A stretch of DNA of 64,000 nucleotides, taken from the NCBI GenBank assembly GCA_951406725.2, contig OX597823.1:25358001-25422000 (forward strand), read 5' to 3'. Shown here piece after piece: positions 1,883 through 55,300 of this stretch. The number at the start of each line of letters is the position of its first letter. The first letter of the stretch is position 1. The position numbers and the translations under genes were made by a program. Origin of the DNA: Octopus vulgaris. Its lineage: Eukaryota. The notes beneath the pieces are model-generated. The model worked only from the letters and a program-made list of their open reading frames with translations. It was not told where the DNA came from and searched no databases.

Positions 1883-11773
<9,891 letters not shown>

Positions 11774-12450
11774 TCCTAAACATAAAAGAAAAATATAAGA
11801 TAAAATATACATATGGAAGCAAATATATAGATAGTAAAACGTCGCAGTAGATGAGGTGTTGGTGAAGATTATTTGGAGGGCCGTGTGTATAAGGTACTGA
11901 ATAAACAACCGATTGGTAAGAAAAACTGTGTTGTGTATTATTGTTCGTAGGCAGGGGAGAACAACCGACAATTAAATGGCTACAGTTCCTCCCAGGGCTA
12001 AATGTATACGTATAGGTCAGAGAACAGCTTGCCTCTCCAAGCATCGGAGGTGGAAGCTATTCCTTAGCACATGTCAACTCATCAAAGCGTTCCAGCTACG
12101 ATCATTCCACCTTATTTTCAAGCAATTAATCCATGGTTACATTATTTACATTCCATTCCCTTTTTCTTTTTAAGATGTTAAAGTGCGGTTTAAAGGAGAT
12201 CTGACTAAAGGAAATCTGGCTGCTACTTCTAACAAGTTGCGTGACCATGCAGATGTTCGCTTGTTGGCCTCACTGAAACAATGTTTCATTATGTTACAGT
12301 GCTGAGTTGGACTTCTTTTTGCATATAACACACGCGCGTGCGCACACACAAACATACAAACACGCACGCATGCACACTCACACACATGAACACACACATA
12401 GTGAAAAAGAGAAGGAGAGTAAGAGAGCGTGAGTGAGCAAAAGAGGGAGT

Positions 12451-13234: not shown

Positions 13235-13338
13235 ACTTACCTTAAGTGATGAAAATATGAAGTTCATATGACACGAAATTGTTGTTTTATAGGCAGGTTA
13301 CAGAATGGGTTATACCACTTGACCTGCTCAACACGTGA
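13235..13338 (-). promoter_or_regulatory. Candidate core promoter and short 5' non-coding exon of gene A
   Basis: Minus strand: TCACGTG (13338-13332), TATAAAA (13291-13285), Inr-like TCATATT (~13260) and AAG|GTAAGT donor (exon end 13241). Coding exon 1 begins at an acceptor, implying an upstream exon. The same layout occurs upstream of gene B. Confidence 0.65.
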
Positions 13339-30027: not shown

Positions 30028-43607
<13,580 letters not shown>

Positions 43608-45261
43608 CTGGAAATGCAAAAAACCGTTCGTATGACATATTTACTAAACCAGCAACATCAAAAACAATAATTACAACAACGATGACGACGACAACAGCGC
43701 CGACAACAACTACAATAACAAGGCCGATGACAAGGACGATCAAGACAATAACAACAATCATAACAAAGACAACAGGAACAGCGGTGACGACGACGACATC
43801 AACAACGATAACGACAGCAACAGACACACCACCCACAAGAACAGCTACAACATACCGTCCACCATACACTTTTAACGGCGGTGAAGATTTGCTATATCAG
43901 GTATACCGGTATATCTATAGTTTCACGGATTCTGTAGAGCACGTCTACTTCAACTGACTATTCAGATAACATATTGCTGCTCGGTTATAAAATGATAATT
44001 TACAACGATGATTTTTTTAGAAGAAGAGTATACACCTAAGCCATAACTTAATTTATCAACTCCATCCTCTAGATAAGTGAAAACCAAAGTTGACTCCGGT
44101 AGGGTTTTATTCCAGAATATAAACGTATTTGAACTAAACCCCGCAAGACATTTTGTCCGGTGTTTTTCCGTTTGAGTCACTCTGTCAAATAGGTTCTAAT
44201 TCTCTCAAATCAAAACTGACCAACTAATAGAAGCGCAGTTGCGAGAATTTATGATAATGGGAATTAACCAAACACAAGTATTTGATATCATATATTGAGA
44301 CACGTGATATAACGTTAGGATTGATGAAAAAGAGATTGAAGACTAAAATATATTGGGCTGAATCAGTGAACTGAGAAACATTCTGGGAAATATAAGTATA
44401 AATTATTCATGTTCTTACAGTAAGCGGTAATAACAAAGGAGGTAGCTGTCTGAGAGATACTGGAATTGAGACGTGGATAATAGGTACAGAAGGCTGTCAT
44501 TTTATACTTTTATAACTGTCCTCAACAAAATCCTAGAGAGTTGAGATTTGTTGTCTCCAAATCTCAAAGCATGCAAGTTCCAGAAAATAACGAATATCAA
44601 TATCAGAATCTGTAAATATTATTAGGATATTTTCACATATCATTTCTTAGCCTTGAAGATTTGTGTTAACATTCGACATTTTTATGCATGTACTTAATTC
44701 TTGTTTTCAGAAAGCTAAACTTTCAAATTATGAATAATAAAGATTCCCCATGCTACAGGTAAGCTTCTTTTAACATTGGCTATCGTCGACATTTCTTAAT
44801 TTCCAAATCTTAGGACAGCATGCCTGCATCTTTCACATTTAATGCCAGACACAGTTTGAGACGGTTATAGAAAGTTGTTAGGGCATGCGGAGTTAACCAA
44901 AGATAATCAACGCAAGCAGCAGCAATAGTAACAGTTACTACAACAATAACAACAACGATGACTGAGACATCAAACACAAAAAGAAAACTGTAAGCAAATA
45001 AGTCCAATAGCTATAGTATATATAAAAACAATACTAATAACACGAACAATTACAATGAAAACATGAACAAAGTCAGAATAATTTCAAAAACATAAGAGCA
45101 GGTGAAAAAGTAACAATCAGAGTGAGCGAGAGAGAGAGGGGGTGAGAAAATTAGAGAGTGAGTGAGAGAGAAAGGGAGAGAGAGTGGAGAAAAGAAGGAG
45201 ATATAGAGAAAGGAGAAATAGATTGAAAGGTGATCTGCAATAGCAACAGTGAATCCAAAAT

Positions 45262-45444
45262 TGTTACCTTCAAATACCAAATGGAAATAATAATCTGTCG
45301 ATGTTTTTACAGTAATTTATAGCTATAATCTACTCAATGTATTTGAGCTGTTGTTTTAAAGTATCACGTGAGAGATAGCACATGTACGAGAGAATGAGTG
45401 AGGTTGAATGAGAGGGAGGGAGTAAGAAACACATGCTCATGTGA
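45262..45444 (-). promoter_or_regulatory. Candidate core promoter and 5' non-coding exon of gene B (copy 1, proximal)
   Basis: TCATGTGA (45437-45444), palindromic TCACGTGA (45364-45371), TATAAAT (45321-45315) and AAG|GTAACA donor (exon end 45268). The spacing mirrors gene A. Confidence 0.62.
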
Positions 45445-46244
45445 AAAATTGTTGATTACAGAGGATTCACAGGTGATAATACTTAATTGTTGGTGAATGT
45501 TATCGTACGGTTTACAGATAAAAATAAACTTGATAACAGGATCAAGCGTATTAAGATAAACGAATTGTGTACTAAGTTGACGTGTCGTTGAGTAAACAGA
45601 AATTCAATCCCGTAACTATGCTACAAGAAAAAAACAAAGTTCTTTATGAAAGAAAAGGGAACTAAAGAAAGCTTCTACAATATAGAAAGTTTTACAATAA
45701 ACCGTTATATTTCGGGCGCAAAGGCCTATCTTTAGAAGGAATATGTAATTACATCGTTTAGAAATTATATATTGCGCTCGAAATATAAGGTTTTCCTTTT
45801 GTAAAACTTTCTGCATTTTTAGAAGCGTTCTTTATTTCCTTTTCTTTCATTTTCTACTTCTATACTTCAATGATTAAAGCGAACTAGAATGCTAAGATTC
45901 TTTATAATGGAATACACGAATATCGTTTTAAAACCACATTGGTCTCTTCTGTCATTGACCAATACTTCCTAGTGAATGACAGAAGAGCAGGTTCTCAGCA
46001 AATCTGGCTTTGCAGAAGCCTTTTATGTACAAATTGAGGAGGAAGAGAGACTTCAGATGTAGGAGAAGATTATTAAAGAATGCTTCAATCACATTTATGA
46101 TGTTGGAAATCAGAGAGATATGATGATAGTTGGCAGGGTTATAGAGGTTACCTGTAGATGAAGTTTGGCTGAATGGTTAAATTAGCATTGCAAATACGAG
46201 TGTTCATCTGCGTGGCATCTTGAGAAAATGTCTTTTGCCATAGG

Positions 46245-47025
46245 TTCGAGTTAACTACTCCATGCTTCATAAGTGAAACTGAATAAATAGAAATTGTGCA
46301 GAAAACCGCCGGATGGATTGTGCCAATAATTCAAATGTACAGCCTTCTTACACACCGTATCACGCTAACTGTGCCTGTAAATTATATTAAGGCTACTCGT
46401 GTCTGTGTAATACTCTATCACTCGAAGTCTAATTCAATGAGCAAATAAAACTACCGAACCGCCATCATGAAGCCGACGGAGATCCATTACATTAAGAGGT
46501 TCTACTTATTTAAGAGGAGACACATTGTAGCAGGTTTCCAAATATTAGAGTATAGTGAAAAACATTACAAAATTTAGCAAGGATAAAGGCTCTCCTTTGG
46601 ACGCAACGTTAGAGCATAATAGAAGAGAAATTATTCGAGTTAACTACTCCATGCTTCATAAGTGAAACTGAATAAATAGAAATTGTGCAGAAAACCGCCG
46701 GATGGATTGTGCCAATAATTCAAATGTACAGCCTTCTTACACACCGTATCACGCTAACTGTGCCTGTAAATTATATTAAGGCTACTCGTGTCTGTGTAAT
46801 ACTCTATCACTCGAAGTCTAATTCAATGAGCAAATAAAACTACCGAACCGCCATCATGAAGCCGACGGAGATCCATTACATTAAGAGGTTCTACTTATTT
46901 AAGAGGAGACACATTGTAGCAGGTTTCCAAATATTAGAGTATAGTGAAAAACATTACAAAATTTAGCAAGGATAAAGGCTCTCCTTTGGACGCAACGTTA
47001 GAGCATAATAGAAGAGAAATTATTC
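46245..47025. repeat. 389-bp tandem duplication inside repeat unit 1 (also in unit 2, ~49702-50469)
   Basis: TTCGAGTTAACTACTCC... occurs at 46245 and 46634, with TTC microhomology at the junction. Confidence 0.93.
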
Positions 47026-48718
47026 CTGCAGGACATGGAAGCCAAGTCACCTGCACTTCTACGTAGCTATATGACTGAAATCACATTCTACACATTCTAT
47101 GCTATGGGTATGTTATGATCACTTTATGAGTGTTGGAAAAGGATGGCATCAAAATAACCACATGAAACAACTCTTTCTAGTTCAGAAAAGAATTTACGTT
47201 GATTCGGTTGTTAATCTGCCACCCGGACTTAACGGTATCGCCCTTGATTTATGAGCCAAGTATGAATCTATGAATCTTGAGTACAAGATAATTCGAAATA
47301 ATACCAGAAAACCAACGCCATCCTCTCTCTCTATCTTTATGTCGCTTCTGTATTTAAGCCAGTTTTGCGTATTAGAATTTAAGTCAAGTCCTTGTTCCTA
47401 AATAGTCTTCGGAGGCAGATTATTTCCTTCCTTTTCCTCAAGAATAATTTTTCTTGCCTTAAAAACAAAAAGCGCGAATTTTTGCAACAGAGGGGTGGAT
47501 TCCACTAATAGATGTTATGAAACAAGGTAGTGGTAATAAACCGAGAGACGAATTAAATCTTCTGCCTAAGTAAGTCTTGGTGACATTTGAACTCAGAACT
47601 CTAAGAGCAAGAACAAATGTAAGGAATCCCGTCCAATGTTCTAACGACATCGCCAGTTCACTACCCTAAACAGACTCTTTATCTATCAATTCCGGAAAGC
47701 TGAAAAATGAAATTGACTTCGGCGAGTTCGAACTCAGAACGAAGAGAGTCTGAATAAATACTGCAAGGCATTTCATCCTACGCTCTAACGACTTTTCTAA
47801 TTTGCCAAATAAATACACTTTACGAAACTTTTTGCGAGTATTTGAGTGTCTAAGTACGCTGAATAAAGCACACACACACACATAAGCAGACACATACAAG
47901 CATACATACGCGCACACACATATACACACACACGTACATACATACATACATACATACATACATACATACATACATACATACATACATACATAAGGTGGAT
48001 TTTAACAACGATTGCGACATGTGTCCAAGTTGTTCAATTATATATAACGAATATCAATATCAGAATCTGTAAATATTATTAGGATATTTTCACATATCAT
48101 TTCTTAGCCTTGAAGATTTGTGTTAACATTCGACATTTTTATGCATGTACTTAATTCTTGTTTTCAGAAAGCTAAACTTTCAAATTATGAATAATAAAGA
48201 TTCCCCATGCTACAGGTAAGCTTCTTTTAACATTGGCTATCGTCGACATTTCTTAATTTCCAAATCTTAGGACAGCATGCCTGCATCTTTCACATTTAAT
48301 GCCAGACACAGTTTGAGACGGTTATAGAAAGTTGTTAGGGCATGCGGAGTTAACCAAAGATAATCAACGCAAGCAGCAGCAATAGTAACAGTTACTACAA
48401 CAATAACAACAACGATGACTGAGACATCAAACACAAAAAGAAAACTGTAAGCAAATAAGTCCAATAGCTATAGTATATATAAAAACAATACTAATAACAC
48501 GAACAATTACAATGAAAACATGAACAAAGTCAGAATAATTTCAAAAACATAAGAGCAGGTGAAAAAGTAACAATCAGAGTGAGCGAGAGAGAGAGGGGGT
48601 GAGAAAATTAGAGAGTGAGTGAGAGAGAAAGGGAGAGAGAGTGGAGAAAAGAAGGAGATATAGAGAAAGGAGAAATAGATTGAAAGGTGATCTGCAATAG
48701 CAACAGTGAATCCAAAAT

Positions 48719-48901
48719 TGTTACCTTCAAATACCAAATGGAAATAATAATCTGTCGATGTTTTTACAGTAATTTATAGCTATAATCTACTCAATGTATT
48801 TGAGCTGTTGTTTTAAAGTATCACGTGAGAGATAGCACATGTACGAGAGAATGAGTGAGGTTGAATGAGAGGGAGGGAGTAAGAAACACATGCTCATGTG
48901 A
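48719..48901 (-). promoter_or_regulatory. Duplicate of gene B candidate promoter/first exon (copy 2)
   Basis: Same sequence inside repeat unit 2: TCACGTGA 48821-48828, TATA 48778-48772, exon end 48725. Confidence 0.5.
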
Positions 48902-51900
48902 AAAATTGTTGATTACAGAGGATTCACAGGTGATAATACTTAATTGTTGGTGAATGTTATCGTACGGTTTACAGATAAAAATAAACTTGATAACAGGATC
49001 AAGCGTATTAAGATAAACGAATTGTGTACTAAGTTGACGTGTCGTTGAGTAAACAGAAATTCAATCCCGTAACTATGCTACAAGAAAAAAACAAAGTTCT
49101 TTATGAAAGAAAAGGGAACTAAAGAAAGCTTCTACAATATAGAAAGTTTTACAATAAACCGTTATATTTCGGGCGCAAAGGCCTATCTTTAGAAGGAATA
49201 TGTAATTACATCGTTTAGAAATTATATATTGCGCTCGAAATATAAGGTTTTCCTTTTGTAAAACTTTCTGCATTTTTAGAAGCGTTCTTTATTTCCCTTT
49301 TCTTTCATTTTCTACTTCTATACTTCAATGATTAAAGCGAACTAGAATGCTAAGATTCTTTATAATGGAATACACGAATATCGTTTTAAAACCACATTGG
49401 TCTCTTCTGTCATTGACCAATACTTCCTAGTGAATGACAGAAGAGCAGGTTCTCAGCAAATCTGGCTTTGCAGAAGCCTTTTATGTACAAATTGAGGAGG
49501 AAGAGAGACTTCAGATGTAGGAGAAGATTATTAAAGAATGCTTCAATCACATTTATGATGTTGGAAATCAGAGAGATATGATGATAGTTGGCAGGGTTAT
49601 AGAGGTTACCTGTAGATGAAGTTTGGCTGAATGGTTAAATTAGCATTGCAAATACGAGTGTTCATCTGCGTGGCATCTTGAGAAAATGTCTTTTGCCATA
49701 GGTTCGAGTTAACTACTCCATGCTTCATAAGTGAAACTGAATAAATAGAAATTGTGCAGAAAACCGCCGGATGGATTGTGCCAATAATTCAAATGTACAG
49801 CCTTCTTACACACCGTATCACGCTAACTGTGCCTGTAAATTATATTAAGGCTACTCGTGTCTGTGTAATACTCTATCACTCGAAGTCTAATTCAATGAGC
49901 AAATAAAACTACCGAACCGCCATCATGAAGCCGACGGAGATCCATTACATTAAGAGGTTCTACTTATTTAAGAGGAGACACATTGTAGCAGGCAAATATT
50001 AGAGTATAGTGAAAAACATTACAAAATTTACAAGGATAAAGGCTCTCCTTTGGACGCAACGTTAGAGCATAATAGAAGAGATTATTCCTACTCCATGCTT
50101 CATAAGTGAAACTGAATAAATAGAAATTGTGCAGAAAACCGCCGGATGGATTGTGCCAATAATTCAAATGTACAGCCTTCTTACACACCGTATCACGCTA
50201 ACTGTGCCTGTAAATTATATTAAGGCTACTCGTGTCTGTGTAATACTCTATCACTCGAAGTCTAATTCAATGAGCAAATAAAACTACCGAACCGCCATCA
50301 TGAAGCCGACGGAGATCCATTACATTAAGAGGTTCTACTTATTTAAGAGGAGACACATTGTAGCAGGTTTCCAAATATTAGAGTATAGTGAAAAACATTA
50401 CAAAATTTAGCAAGGATAAAGGCTCTCCTTTGGACGCAACGTTAGAGCATAATAGAAGAGAAATTATTCCTGCAGGACATGGAAGCCAAGTCACCTGCAC
50501 TTCTACGTAGCTATATGACTGAAATCACATTCTACACATTCTATGCTATGGGTATGTTATGATCACTTTATGAGTGTTGGAAAAGGATGGCATCAAAATA
50601 ACCACATGAAACAACTCTTTCTAGTTCAGAAAAGAATTTACGTTGATTCGGTTGTTAATCTGCCACCCGGACTTAACGGTATCGCCCTTGATTTATGAGC
50701 CAAGTATGAATCTATGAATCTTGAGTACAAGATAATTCGAAATAATACCAGAAAACCAACGCCATCCTCTCTCTCTATCTTTATGTCGCTTCTGTATTTA
50801 AGCCAGTTTTGCGTATTAGAATTTAAGTCAAGTCCTTGTTCCTAAATAGTCTTCGGAGGCAGATTATTTCCTTCCTTTTCCTCAAGAATAATTTTTCTTG
50901 CCTTAAAAACAAAAAGCGCGAATTTTTGCAACAGAGGGGTGGATTCCACTAATAGATGTTATGAAACAAGGTAGTGGTAATAAACCGAGAGACGAATTAA
51001 ATCTTCTGCCTAAGTAAGTCTTGGTGACATTTGAACTCAGAACTCTAAGAGCAAGAACAAATGTAAGGAATCCCGTCCAATGTTCTAACGACATCGCCAG
51101 TTCACTACCCTAAACAGACTCTTTATCTATCAATTCCGGAAAGCTGAAAAATGAAATTGACTTCGGCGAGTTCGAACTCAGAACGAAGAGAGTCTGAATA
51201 AATACTGCAAGGCATTTCATCCTACGCTCTAACGACTTTTCTAATTTGCCAAATAAATACACTTTACGAAACTTTTTGCGAGTATTTGAGTGTCTAAGTA
51301 CGCTGAATAAAGCACACACACACACATAAGCAGACACATACAAGCATACATACGCGCACACACATATACACACACACGTACATACATACATACATACATA
51401 CATACATACATACATACATACATACATACATACATACATACATACATAAGGTGGATTTTAACAACGATTGCGACATGTGTCCAAGTTGTTCAATTATATA
51501 TAACGAATATCAATATCAGAATCTGTAAATATTATTAGGATATTTTCACATATCATTTCTTAGCCTTGAAGATTTGTGTTAACATTCGACATTTTTATGC
51601 ATGTACTTAATTCTTGTTTTCAGAAAGCTAAACTTTCAAATTATGAATAATAAAGATTCCCCATGCTACAGGTAAGCTTCTTTTAACATTGGCTATCGTC
51701 GACATTTCTTAATTTCCAAATCTTAGGACAGCATGCCTGCATCTTTCACATTTAATGCCAGACACAGTTTGAGACGGTTATAGAAAGTTGTTAGGGCATG
51801 CGGAGTTAACCAAAGATAATCAACGCAAGCAGCAGCAATAGTAACAGTTACTACAACAATAACAACAACGATGACTGAGACATCAAACACAAAAAGAAAA

Positions 51901-52172
51901 CTGTAAGCAAATAAGTCCAATAGCTATAGTATATATAAAAACAATACTAATAACACGAACAATTACAATGAAAACATGAACAAAGTCAGAATAATTTCAA
52001 AAACATAAGAGCAGGTGAAAAAGTAACAATCAGAGTGAGCGAGAGAGAGGGGGTGAGAAAATTAGAGAGTGAGTGAGAGAGAAAGGGAGAGAGAGTGGAG
52101 AAAAGAAGGAGATATAGAGAAAGGAGAAATAGATTGAAAGGTGATCTGCAATAGCAACAGTGAATCCAAAAT

Positions 52173-52355
52173 TGTTACCTTCAAATACCAAATGGAAATA
52201 ATAATCTGTCGATGTTTTTACAGTAATTTATAGCTATAATCTACTCAATGTATTTGAGCTGTTGTTTTAAAGTATCACGTGAGAGATAGCACATGTACGA
52301 GAGAATGAGTGAGGTTGAATGAGAGGGAGGGAGTAAGAAACACATGCTCATGTGA
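52173..52355 (-). promoter_or_regulatory. Duplicate of gene B candidate promoter/first exon (copy 3)
   Basis: Same sequence inside repeat unit 3: TCACGTGA 52275-52282, TATA 52232-52226, exon end 52179. Confidence 0.5.
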
Positions 52356-55300
52356 AAAATTGTTGATTACAGAGGATTCACAGGTGATAATACTTAATTG
52401 TTGGTGAATGTTATCGTACGGTTTACAGATAAAAATAAACTTGATAACAGGATCAAGCGTATTAAGATAAACGAATTGTGTACTAAGTTGACGTGTCGTT
52501 GAGTAAACAGAAATTCAATCCCGTAACTATGCTACAAGAAAAAAACAAAGTTCTTTATGAAAGAAAAGGGAACTAAAGAAAGCTTCTACAATATAGAAAG
52601 TTTTACAATAAACCGTTATATTTCGGGCGCAAAGGCCTATCTTTAGAAGGAATATGTAATTACATCGTTTAGAAATTATATATTGCGCTCGAAATATAAG
52701 GTTTTCCTTTTGTAAAACTTTCTGCATTTTTAGAAGCGTTCTTTATTTCCTTTTCTTTCATTTTCTACTTCTATACTTCAATGATTAAAGCGAACTAGAA
52801 TGCTAAGATTCTTTATAATGGAATACACGAATATCGTTTTAAAACCACATTGGTCTCTTCTGTCATTGACCAATACTTCCTAGTGAATGACAGAAGAGCA
52901 GGTTCTCAGCAAATCTGGCTTTGCAGAAGCCTTTTATGTACAAATTGAGGAGGAAGAGAGACTTCAGATGTAGGAGAAGATTATTAAAGAATGCTTCAAT
53001 CACATTTATGATGTTGGAAATCAGAGAGATATGATGATAGTTGGCAGGGTTATAGAGGTTACCTGTAGATGAAGTTTGGCTGAATGGTTAAATTAGCATT
53101 GCAAATACGAGTGTTCATCTGCGTGGCATCTTGAGAAAATGTCTTTTGCCATAGGTTCGAGTTAACTACTCCATGCTTCATAAGTGAAACTGAATAAATA
53201 GAAATTGTGCAGAAAACCGCCGGATGGATTGTGCCAATAATTCAAATGTACAGCCTTCTTACACACCGTATCACGCTAACTGTGCCTGTAAATTATATTA
53301 AGGCTACTCGTGTCTGTGTAATACTCTATCACTCGAAGTCTAATTCAATGAGCAAATAAAACTACCGAACCGCCATCATGAAGCCGACGGAGATCCATTA
53401 CATTAAGAGGTTCTACTTATTTAAGAGGAGACACATTGTAGCAGGTTTCCAAATATTAGAGTATAGTGAAAAACATTACAAAATTTAGCAAGGATAAAGG
53501 CTCTCCTTTGGACGCAACGTTAGAGCATAATAGAAGAGAAATTATTCCTGCAGGACATGGAAGCCAAGTCACCTGCACTTCTACGTAGCTATATGACTGA
53601 AATCACATTCTACACATTCTATGCTATGGGTATGTTATGATCACTTTATGAGTGTTGGAAAAGGATGGCATCAAAATAACCACATGAAACAACTCTTTCT
53701 AGTTCAGAAAAGAATTTACGTTGATTCGGTTGTTAATCTGCCACCCGGACTTAACGGTATCGCCCTTGATTTATGAGCCAAGTATGAATCTATGAATCTT
53801 GAGTACAAGATAATTCGAAATAATACCAGAAAACCAACGCCATCCTCTCTCTCTATCTTTATGTCGCTTCTGTATTTAAGCCAGTTTTGCGTATTAGAAT
53901 TTAAGTCAAGTCCTTGTTCCTAAATAGTCTTCGGAGGCAGATTATTTCCTTCCTTTTCCTCAAGAATAATTTTTCTTGCCTTAAAAACAAAAAGCGCGAA
54001 TTTTTGCAACAGAGGGGTGGATTCCACTAATAGATGTTATGAAACAAGGTAGTGGTAATAAACCGAGAGACGAATTAAATCTTCTGCCTAAGTAAGTCTT
54101 GGTGACATTTGAACTCAGAACTCTAAGAGCAAGAACAAATGTAAGGAATCCCGTCCAATGTTCTAACGACATCGCCAGTTCACTACCCTAAATAGACTCT
54201 TTATCTATCAATTCCGGAAAGCTGAAAAATGAAATTGACTTCGGCGAGTTCGAACTCAGAACGAAGAGAGTCTGAATAAATACTGCAAGGCATTTCATCC
54301 TACGCTCTAACGACTTTTCTAATTTGCCAAATAAATACACTTTACGAAACTTTTTGCGAGTATTTGAGTGTCTAAGTACGCTGAATAAAGCACACACACA
54401 CACATAAGCAGACACATACAAGCATACATACGCGCACACACATATACACACACACGTACATACATACATACATACATACATACATACATACATACATACA
54501 TACATACATACATACATACATACATAAGGTGGATTTTAACAACGATTGCGACATGTGTCCAAGTTGTTCAATTAACCGGATAACTTATCGAATTAGTGCG
54601 CAAAGTGATAGAATCCTCGTGAACAGTGTAATAAAGACGGACTTTTGAATTACAAAAAAGTGCATTCTATTGGCTTCGACACAATCAGCCAATTACTCTC
54701 TGTTGTAGCTAGCTCACTGGTAAACATATATATTGAATGCGTTTACAATGTTTGCATTTAAGAAAAAAATAATATTGTATTATATAATATATAATTGATT
54801 ACACAATCCCGAGTTCACGATTTCGTTTGGGGTTTGTGATCTCCTCTTGGTATGTGATCTCTTATAGTTCTATACAGATCACAAAAGAAATATTTAGAAC
54901 ATGACCTAATCTTATGACAATAATTAATCCTTTTGAGAATCTCAATGTCTGCAGTAGCCGATACTTATCTACACTTTCCGTATTGTTAAGCAGGAGAAAG
55001 ACAAACGTGCCCTTGGTTTGGCCATTGGTTTGAAGTCGGCACTTCGGGCTAGCAAACTGATCATCAGTTCCACAGCGCTGCCGCTGCAATGAAGTGGCAT
55101 CATACTAAGAGGATGGTTTATGTCACTCATCTGTTTACCATCATTAGAACGTTACTAACAGCCATTAACTATCCTGCAGTTGATTTTTTGCAAGATTAGA
55201 TTCTTGGTCATAGGCACAGAATTATGAATTATATCACATTGTCGTACTACTTTACAGCTAGGTGGACAGAGGTATAGAGTCTCAAGTATATGTCGATGGA

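What the first reader, a model, noticed from the sequence alone, without database searches (positions are those of the whole stretch)
44587..54574. Tandem triplication of the promoter and first non-coding exon of cathepsin L gene B
Seen: three near-identical 3.1-3.5 kb units start ~1 kb upstream of the gene B ATG. Each carries, on the gene's strand, TCATGTGA + TCACGTGA + TATAAAT + an AAG|GTAACA donor (exon ends 45268, 48725, 52179). The same E-box/TATA/donor layout sits upstream of gene A. Inference: the repeat is not a satellite but an amplification of the promoter/exon-1 module without coding sequence. It would give three identical first exons able to splice to the single acceptor at 43607, so expression dosage could vary with promoter copy number. 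Near-identity means it is either very recent/polymorphic or an assembly artefact.
Basis: partly seen in the sequence, partly recalled or inferred. Interest (0 to 1): 0.75.

Follow-up and report, generated by a model that had tools for sequence, protein, structure and literature searches.

The report
Triplicated promoter of octopus cathepsin L
In an octopus genome, the predicted promoter and non-coding first exon of an intact cathepsin L protease gene lie in three near-identical head-to-tail copies; the exon is spliced onto the gene in an RNA-like run, and the copy number likely differs between animals, so this is probably a recent variant that would give one gene extra start sites, an arrangement already known from a plant gene and human BRCA1.

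Summary
Confirmed. Three tandem units (3,457, 3,456 and 3,075 bp) differ by 0-1 substitutions and share one junction with a 3-base insert. They start 980 bp upstream of an intact 332-aa cathepsin L and hold none of its coding sequence. One of two RNA-like runs splices the unit's donor (45268) to the acceptor at 43607. An assembly artefact is unlikely: DNA run X3 breaks at the unit's edge and steps from depth 68 to 177. Run X4, another sample with the same species label, crosses that edge unbroken, so it likely carries one copy. The junction itself was not seen in reads, the start site is only predicted, and nothing shows that the upstream copies fire or raise expression. Best reading: a young copy-number variant whose extra promoters likely add identical mRNA, less than threefold. 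Closest known cases: Arabis PEP1 (both exon-1 copies used) and a benign BRCA1 5' triplication.

The parts
44587..48043 (-). Unit U1 (gene-proximal): 681 bp of intron 1, exon 1, predicted promoter, about 2.7 kb upstream DNA; includes the 3-base junction insert at 48041-48043
48044..51499 (-). Unit U2 (middle); 0 substitutions against U1; four small deletions clustered at its inner duplication
51500..54574 (-). Unit U3 (distal); single copy of the 389-bp segment; 1 substitution against U1/U2
45268..45291 (-). Non-coding exon 1 in U1; donor end 45268 shown by a spliced contig; 5' end predicted from the TATA box (about 24 nt), not mapped
   Evidence: joint 45268 to 43607; 5' end inferred
48725..48748 (-). 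Identical exon-1 copy in U2; would need a 5,117-nt intron to reach exon 2; use not shown
52179..52202 (-). Identical exon-1 copy in U3; would need an 8,571-nt intron; use not shown
45315..45444 (-). Predicted core promoter in U1: TCACATGA (45444), TCACGTGA (45371), TATAAAT (45321); same boxes at 48901/48828/48778 and 52355/52282/52232
   Evidence: function predicted
46245..47025 (.). Inner 389-bp tandem duplication in U1 (perfect, TTC microhomology at the joint); imperfect counterpart in U2 at 49703-50471; overlaps an old interspersed repeat
45646..45850 (.). Nested inverted-repeat element (MITE-like, inferred) in each unit, about 330 bp upstream of the TATA box
   Evidence: high contig depth at this place
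48041..48043 (.). Junction U1/U2: 3-base insert TAT, no homology between the two breakpoints
51497..51499 (.). Junction U2/U3, identical to the first
30028..43607 (-). Gene B, cathepsin L, 7 coding exons (43607-43465, 42720-42615, 38953-38798, 35725-35602, 33256-33159, 30800-30529, 30127-30028), 332 aa, ATG is the first codon of exon 2
   Evidence: joints exon 1-2 and exon 2-3
13241..13338 (-). Gene A's predicted promoter and exon-1 donor with the same E-box/TATA/donor spacing (single copy)
   Evidence: not tested with RNA

Best explanation
Three near-identical tandem copies of the predicted promoter and non-coding first exon sit upstream of one intact cathepsin L coding region, likely as a young copy-number variant, and each copy would likely start transcription and splice to the same second exon, adding identical mRNA by less than threefold. 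Origin (inferred): one non-homologous break-and-join event duplicated about 3.07 kb and left a 3-base insert; a 389-bp segment then doubled inside one copy; unequal crossing-over copied that unit again. Shown: the array, the exon 1-exon 2 splice, and a depth step at the unit's edge in one DNA run. Inferred: single-copy alleles in other animals (about 0.8), firing and productive splicing of upstream copies (about 0.6), and a net rise in mRNA (about 0.45). The gain is expected to be sub-additive because upstream polymerases must cross the downstream promoters.
For: table 5: X8 contig (930 nt, depth 2,488) joins 45268 to 43607 and 43465 to 42720; neither joint is in the 2 DNA runs., table 8: in X3 the flank contig (depth 67.8) ends at 44616 and the unit contig (176.7) begins at 44587, exactly the unit's edge with a 30-base overlap; the next unit contig has depth 225. 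In X4 one 3,285-nt contig (48.5) crosses the edge unbroken and the next has depth 69. Copies differ by 0 of about 3,450 and 1 of about 3,070 bases, while X4's allele differs at 6 sites in about 1.5 kb of the unit, so the copies are more alike than two alleles. Junctions are identical and the breakpoints share no homology (score 18; 44 and 46 of 50 shuffles as high). Each copy keeps 2.4 kb or more of upstream DNA and an unchanged donor. Precedent: in Arabis PEP1 both exon-1 copies have start sites and splice to one exon 2 (PMC3527215).
Against: The unit-to-unit junction was not seen in any read set; the tandem order and the count of three rest on the assembly. The tool warns that contig depth is no copy number and that contigs show presence, not absence; X3 is flagged as a possible source of this DNA, and only 2 DNA runs were laid. 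The exon 1-2 joint appeared in 1 of 2 RNA-like runs. The X8 contig runs 499 nt upstream of the donor to 45766 (4 ATGs), so the predicted start behind the TATA box is not confirmed. Low-depth contigs of X8 and X13 cross 44587 without a branch, giving no sign of junction-bearing RNA (their genotypes are unknown). Each upstream transcript would cross an AATAAA (49293, 45836) and 76 ATGs per unit if the wrong donor is used. The BRCA1 exon 1-2 triplication was reported not to affect transcription (PMC8268747).
Confidence: 0.5

Rival explanations
1. The variant is real but expression-neutral: output is limited by shared activators, or upstream transcription occludes the downstream promoters, so one promoter's worth of mRNA is made and the allele drifts.
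For: BRCA1 5' triplication was classed benign with no allelic imbalance in mRNA (PMC8268747 passages). The cluster duplicates readily (a 95-98% identical block of about 40 kb nearby), so no selection is needed. No RNA across the junction was seen. Interference between tandem promoters is recalled knowledge, not tested here.
Against: Both PEP1 copies are used. Duplicated and triplicated promoter repeats go with higher TaALMT1 expression (review PMC6480313). A step from two to three copies is compatible with selection, though also with ordinary unequal exchange.
Confidence: 0.33
2. The extra copies lower useful output: upstream transcripts end at the AATAAA in the unit or use the gene-proximal donor, giving a multi-kilobase leader full of upstream ATGs, while also suppressing the proximal promoter.
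For: One AATAAA and one ATTAAA per upstream interval; 76 ATGs between the U2 donor and the U1 donor; the X8 contig extends upstream through the promoter and then uses the 45268 donor, as such a read-through product would.
Against: The native intron 1 also holds an AATAAA (44111) and the same ATTAAA (44843) and is spliced at high depth. The contig extension can arise from joining low-level upstream reads to an abundant mRNA.
Confidence: 0.1
3. The array is wholly or partly an assembly artefact (for example two copies, or two haplotypes, laid out as three).
For: Near-zero substitutions and identical junctions. X3's ratio of 2.6 is below 3. At 45837 X3 shows an extra C at depth 186.9, a form that only U2 has in the assembly, so unit-level detail in the assembly may hold errors. 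No junction read was obtained.
Against: Read-derived contigs of X3 break exactly at the unit's edge and are 2.6 to 3.3 times deeper inside it, against 1 to 1.4 in X4. A pure artefact predicts neither. An error in the exact count stays possible.
Confidence: 0.07

Closest known systems
Arabis alpina PEP1 partial tandem duplication (Albani et al. 2012, PMC3527215; abstract, passages and section 12 read)
   Same: Tandem copy of proximal promoter, exon 1 and part of intron 1; both copies splice to one exon 2 and give the same protein; presence varies among accessions; lies in a gene family prone to tandem duplication.
   Different: PEP1 has two copies, a coding exon 1 and diverged upstream sequences with different expression patterns. 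Here there are three copies, exon 1 is non-coding, the promoters are identical, and use of the upstream copies is untested.
Human BRCA1 tandem triplication of exons 1-2 and part of intron 2 (Caputo et al. 2021, PMC8268747; passages read)
   Same: Three tandem copies of a 5' gene segment of a few kb (7.3 kb), segregating in a population, last copy continuous with the intact gene.
   Different: It includes exon 2, which holds the start codon (recalled), and was classed benign with no effect on transcription reported. Here no coding sequence is copied.
Wheat TaALMT1 promoter repeats (seen only in the review PMC6480313, two passages)
   Same: Duplicated and triplicated promoter blocks associated with higher expression of an unduplicated coding region.
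   Different: The passage describes repeats in the promoter region, not a whole module with exon 1 and a splice donor; function is documented there and not here.
Cathepsin L1-like, Octopus vulgaris (P0020)
   Same: Identical to the 332-aa product of gene B.
   Different: A protein record only; it says nothing of the upstream array.

Membership tests
5' partial tandem gene duplication giving alternative first exons (PEP1 type) | Tandem copy of promoter, exon 1 and part of intron 1, without the downstream exons | tested here: met
   three units, no gene B coding exon inside
5' partial tandem gene duplication giving alternative first exons (PEP1 type) | The copied exon is a real first exon spliced to the shared exon 2 | tested here: met
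   joint 45268 to 43607 in X8 (1 of 2 RNA-like runs); that it is the first exon is inferred, the 5' end is unmapped
5' partial tandem gene duplication giving alternative first exons (PEP1 type) | Each copy has its own start site and yields full-length mRNA | not testable with these tools
   Copies are identical across exon 1; only contigs, no raw RNA reads, and the RNA runs' genotypes are unknown
Segregating copy-number variant | Multi-copy state present in raw sequence data, not only in the assembly | tested here: met
   X3 contig break at 44587/44616 and depth 67.8 to 176.7; the junction itself was not observed
Segregating copy-number variant | Copy number differs between individuals of the species | tested here: inconclusive
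   X4 crosses the edge unbroken with flat depth, which fits one copy; one run only, and contigs cannot prove absence
Expression-dosage promoter amplification (TaALMT1 type) | Expression rises with copy number | not testable with these tools
   No matched DNA and RNA from the same animals
Satellite or transposon array | Unit dispersed or high-copy elsewhere in the genome | tested here: not met
   3 full-length matches of 43 listed, all in the array; only partial 68-78% matches elsewhere among the 40 candidates scored
Cathepsin L (papain family C1A) | I29 propeptide plus Peptidase_C1 domain, catalytic Cys/His/Asn, ERFNIN-like motif | tested here: met
   (PF08246, PF00112); one search shows CGSCW, DHGV, NSWG and an ERWNVN-type propeptide (motif names recalled; PMC12032550 passages list the same hallmarks)
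CLEAR/TFEB-regulated lysosomal promoter | TCACGTGA close to the start site | tested here: met
   motif as given in PMC10069964 (one passage); the start site is predicted
CLEAR/TFEB-regulated lysosomal promoter | Binding and activation by a MiT/TFE factor | not testable with these tools
   The core is a general bHLH E-box (own knowledge); no binding data

The most novel reading that the evidence does not exclude
A wild octopus population is segregating a promoter-only gene amplification: one, two or three complete copies of a CLEAR-box promoter and non-coding exon 1 feed a single cathepsin L coding region, act as a stepwise dosage dial for a digestive protease, and are favoured by selection. 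It would be a natural allelic series for measuring how identical promoters in tandem add up or interfere.
Probability: 0.2. Interest if true: 0.62.

Novelty: new member of a known kind. Interest (0 to 1): 0.4.

Why it matters
If the upstream copies work, copy number raises enzyme output without copying the coding region, and the variant would be invisible to protein- or cDNA-based surveys. Cathepsins including L are named among the acid digestive enzymes of octopus (PMC12032550 passages), so a dosage allele could matter for growth in aquaculture; whether gene B is the digestive form was not tested. The locus also catches at its first step the process that leaves genes with several first exons, before the copies diverge as in PEP1. 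If it is neutral, it is an ordinary structural variant in a duplication-prone cluster.

Tried and rejected
Satellite or transposon array: rejected. Repeat-mediated origin of the first duplication: rejected, no homology between the breakpoints. Old duplication kept alike by gene conversion: considered after note e1-9351605; judged less likely because identity covers the whole unit and both junctions and X4 seems to carry one copy, but not excluded. Dog ASIP as an analogue: recalled as a promoter duplication, but the passages of PMC8484016 describe SINE insertions and deletions, so dropped. Drosophila plexus (PMC13322080 passages) copies coding sequence around a transposon, so not used. No RNA holder is on record (kinds are guesses); that blank is no evidence. 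X13 has no cover over 45266-45757 and no exon 1-2 joint; not used as evidence (an exon shorter than the 31-base word could be missed). X8's share of 0.71 of the words in 43400-48300 and its low-depth upstream contigs could be nascent RNA or DNA; no silent control stretch was laid, so not used. Of 24 listed runs only 4 were laid; the junction stretch, the right flank and the runs labelled organisms B-D were not examined. A possible cryptic acceptor (CAG at 45348, after an 87-nt AG-free stretch, 69% pyrimidine, no ATG before the donor) could make downstream exon-1 copies internal exons, but the last 15 bases are A-rich, so this is only noted. The strict promoter pattern finds no site at the four other paralogous loci in the 224 kb examined. 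Literature searches that found no description of this locus: (0 papers); the library lacks most subscription papers, and no supplements were read. Scan notes for this place and for 'cathepsin' in this genome: none.
Full report
Observation. Self-alignment of the window shows three head-to-tail units on 44587-54574. Global alignment gives U1 44587-48043, U2 48044-51499 and U3 51500-54574. U1 and U2 have no substitution and six indels; U3 differs from both by one substitution and lacks a 389-bp inner duplication. Both junctions are identical and hold a 3-base insert; the two breakpoints share no homology (score 18, reached by 44 and 46 of 50 shuffles on the two strands). A 501-bp piece of the unit has three full-length matches in G000 among 43 listed, all within the array.

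The gene. Seven exons on the minus strand, all with AG/GT ends, give a 332-aa open frame identical to P0020, named cathepsin L1-like of Octopus vulgaris, with I29 and Peptidase_C1 domains. The ATG is the first codon after the acceptor at 43607, so any upstream exon is non-coding. Gene B heads a same-strand cluster of six cathepsin L-like loci on G000:C10, about 25.237-25.402 Mb; one of them shows only its last two coding exons. Gene A has the same E-box, TATA and donor spacing. A pattern written after the fact hits four places in the window and none in 200 shuffles, but the two promoters do not otherwise align (142 of 300 shuffles score as well).

Exon 1 is real. Four of 24 listed runs were laid on 42560-46240. 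In X8, an RNA-like run, one 930-nt contig of depth 2,488 joins 45268 to 43607 (1,660 bases skipped, GT-AG on the gene's strand) and then 43465 to 42720. X13, the second RNA-like run, shows only the second joint; the two DNA runs show neither. The X8 contig continues 499 nt upstream of the donor to 45766. Contigs cannot show a start, so the roughly 24-nt exon implied by the TATA box is a prediction, and a longer first exon is not excluded. The three copies are identical here, so the contig cannot be assigned to one of them.

The array is likely real and polymorphic. In X3 (DNA, flagged as a possible source) the flank contig has depth 67.8 and ends at 44616; the next contig starts at 44587, the unit's first base, with depth 176.7; the one after has 225 (table 8). 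A break exactly at the edge with a 2.6- to 3.3-fold step is what a repeated unit gives in read-derived contigs, and an assembly error would give neither. In X4 (same species label, other sample and study) one 3,285-nt contig of depth 48.5 crosses the edge, and the next has 69, which fits a single copy. Limits: the tool states that depth is no copy number and that contigs show presence, not absence; only two DNA runs were laid; and the junction was not seen in reads, so tandem order and the count of three rest on the assembly. X3 also shows an extra C at 45837 at depth 186.9, a form that only U2 has in the assembly, so small differences between units may be assembly errors.

Age and origin (inferred). 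Copies differ at 0 of about 3,450 sites (95% interval 0-0.11%) and 1 of about 3,070 (0.001-0.18%), while X4's allele differs at 6 sites in about 1.5 kb of the unit (0.38%, 0.14-0.83%). The copies are thus likely younger than ordinary allelic divergence. One non-homologous join with a short insert made the first duplication. U1 and U2 share the inner duplication, a GA-repeat length and the single substitution, so the third copy likely came from a U1-type unit by unequal exchange; U2 matches U3 at the TATG repeat, which fits less neatly but is a mutable site.

How it likely works. Each unit carries 2.4 kb or more of upstream DNA, both E-boxes, the TATA box and an unchanged donor. TCACGTGA near a start site is the CLEAR element of TFEB targets (PMC10069964, one passage); binding here is untested. 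Transcripts from U2 and U3 would splice over 5,117 and 8,571 nt to the same exon 2 and give an identical mRNA. Against a simple threefold gain: upstream polymerases cross the downstream promoters (interference is recalled knowledge), each interval holds an AATAAA, and use of the wrong donor would leave 76 ATGs per unit in the leader. The native intron also holds an AATAAA and is spliced well. Low-depth contigs of X8 and X13 cross 44587 without a branch, so no junction-bearing RNA was seen, in animals of unknown genotype. I put a sub-additive gain at 0.5, neutrality at 0.33, a net loss at 0.1 and an artefact at 0.07.

Comparison with what is known. Arabis alpina PEP1 has a tandem copy of promoter, exon 1 and part of intron 1; both copies have start sites, splice to one exon 2 and vary among accessions (PMC3527215; abstract, passages and section 12). 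A 7.3-kb tandem triplication of BRCA1 exons 1-2 was classed benign with no effect on transcription reported (PMC8268747, passages). Duplicated and triplicated promoter repeats go with high TaALMT1 expression in wheat (review PMC6480313, passages). The octopus locus works like these in layout; it differs in copying only a non-coding exon, in having identical promoters, and in its youth. Searches found no description of this locus; most subscription papers are outside the library and no supplements were read. The scan has no note on this place; eight notes on other genomes were listed, two of them on copied promoter/exon-1 modules of a related kind.

Verdict. Observation confirmed; anatomy and splice supported by independent sequence data; artefact unlikely; polymorphism likely; dosage effect open. 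New member of a known kind, interest 0.4.

Noticed in passing
G000:C10:25231051-25322000 (L009-L018): A block of about 40 kb recurs about 52 kb further on at 95-98% identity within the cathepsin L cluster; one locus (25267684-25265205) shows only the last two coding exons and may be a 5'-truncated copy.
   Followed up: partly
window 40051-41592, + strand: Broken non-LTR retrotransposon fragment antisense within the intron between coding exons 2 and 3 of gene B; two frames hit RVT_1 (E 9.3e-08 and 0.00042).
   Followed up: partly
window 33853-33297, - strand: Inside a gene B intron, just before the exon at 33256, lie GTCACGTGA (33853), TCACATGAC (33444) and TATAAAA (33302): the same two E-boxes as in the promoter, possibly an intronic enhancer or chance.
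   Followed up: no
window 43780: A 12-bp insertion in the GTT/GTC-rich tract of intron 1 is seen in X3, X13 and, as a different allele, X4; the window lacks it.
   Followed up: no
window 49993-50088: Four small deletions within 100 bp at U2's inner duplication joint; either error-prone repair or a local assembly error.
   Followed up: no
window 1886-11775, - strand: Gene A: mature-domain exons 89-94% identical to gene B but signal and propeptide exons only 40-70%; either recent gene conversion of the 3' part or faster change of the propeptide.
   Followed up: no
window 7732-9090: Tandem run of several diverged copies of a common short interspersed repeat in a gene A intron.
   Followed up: no
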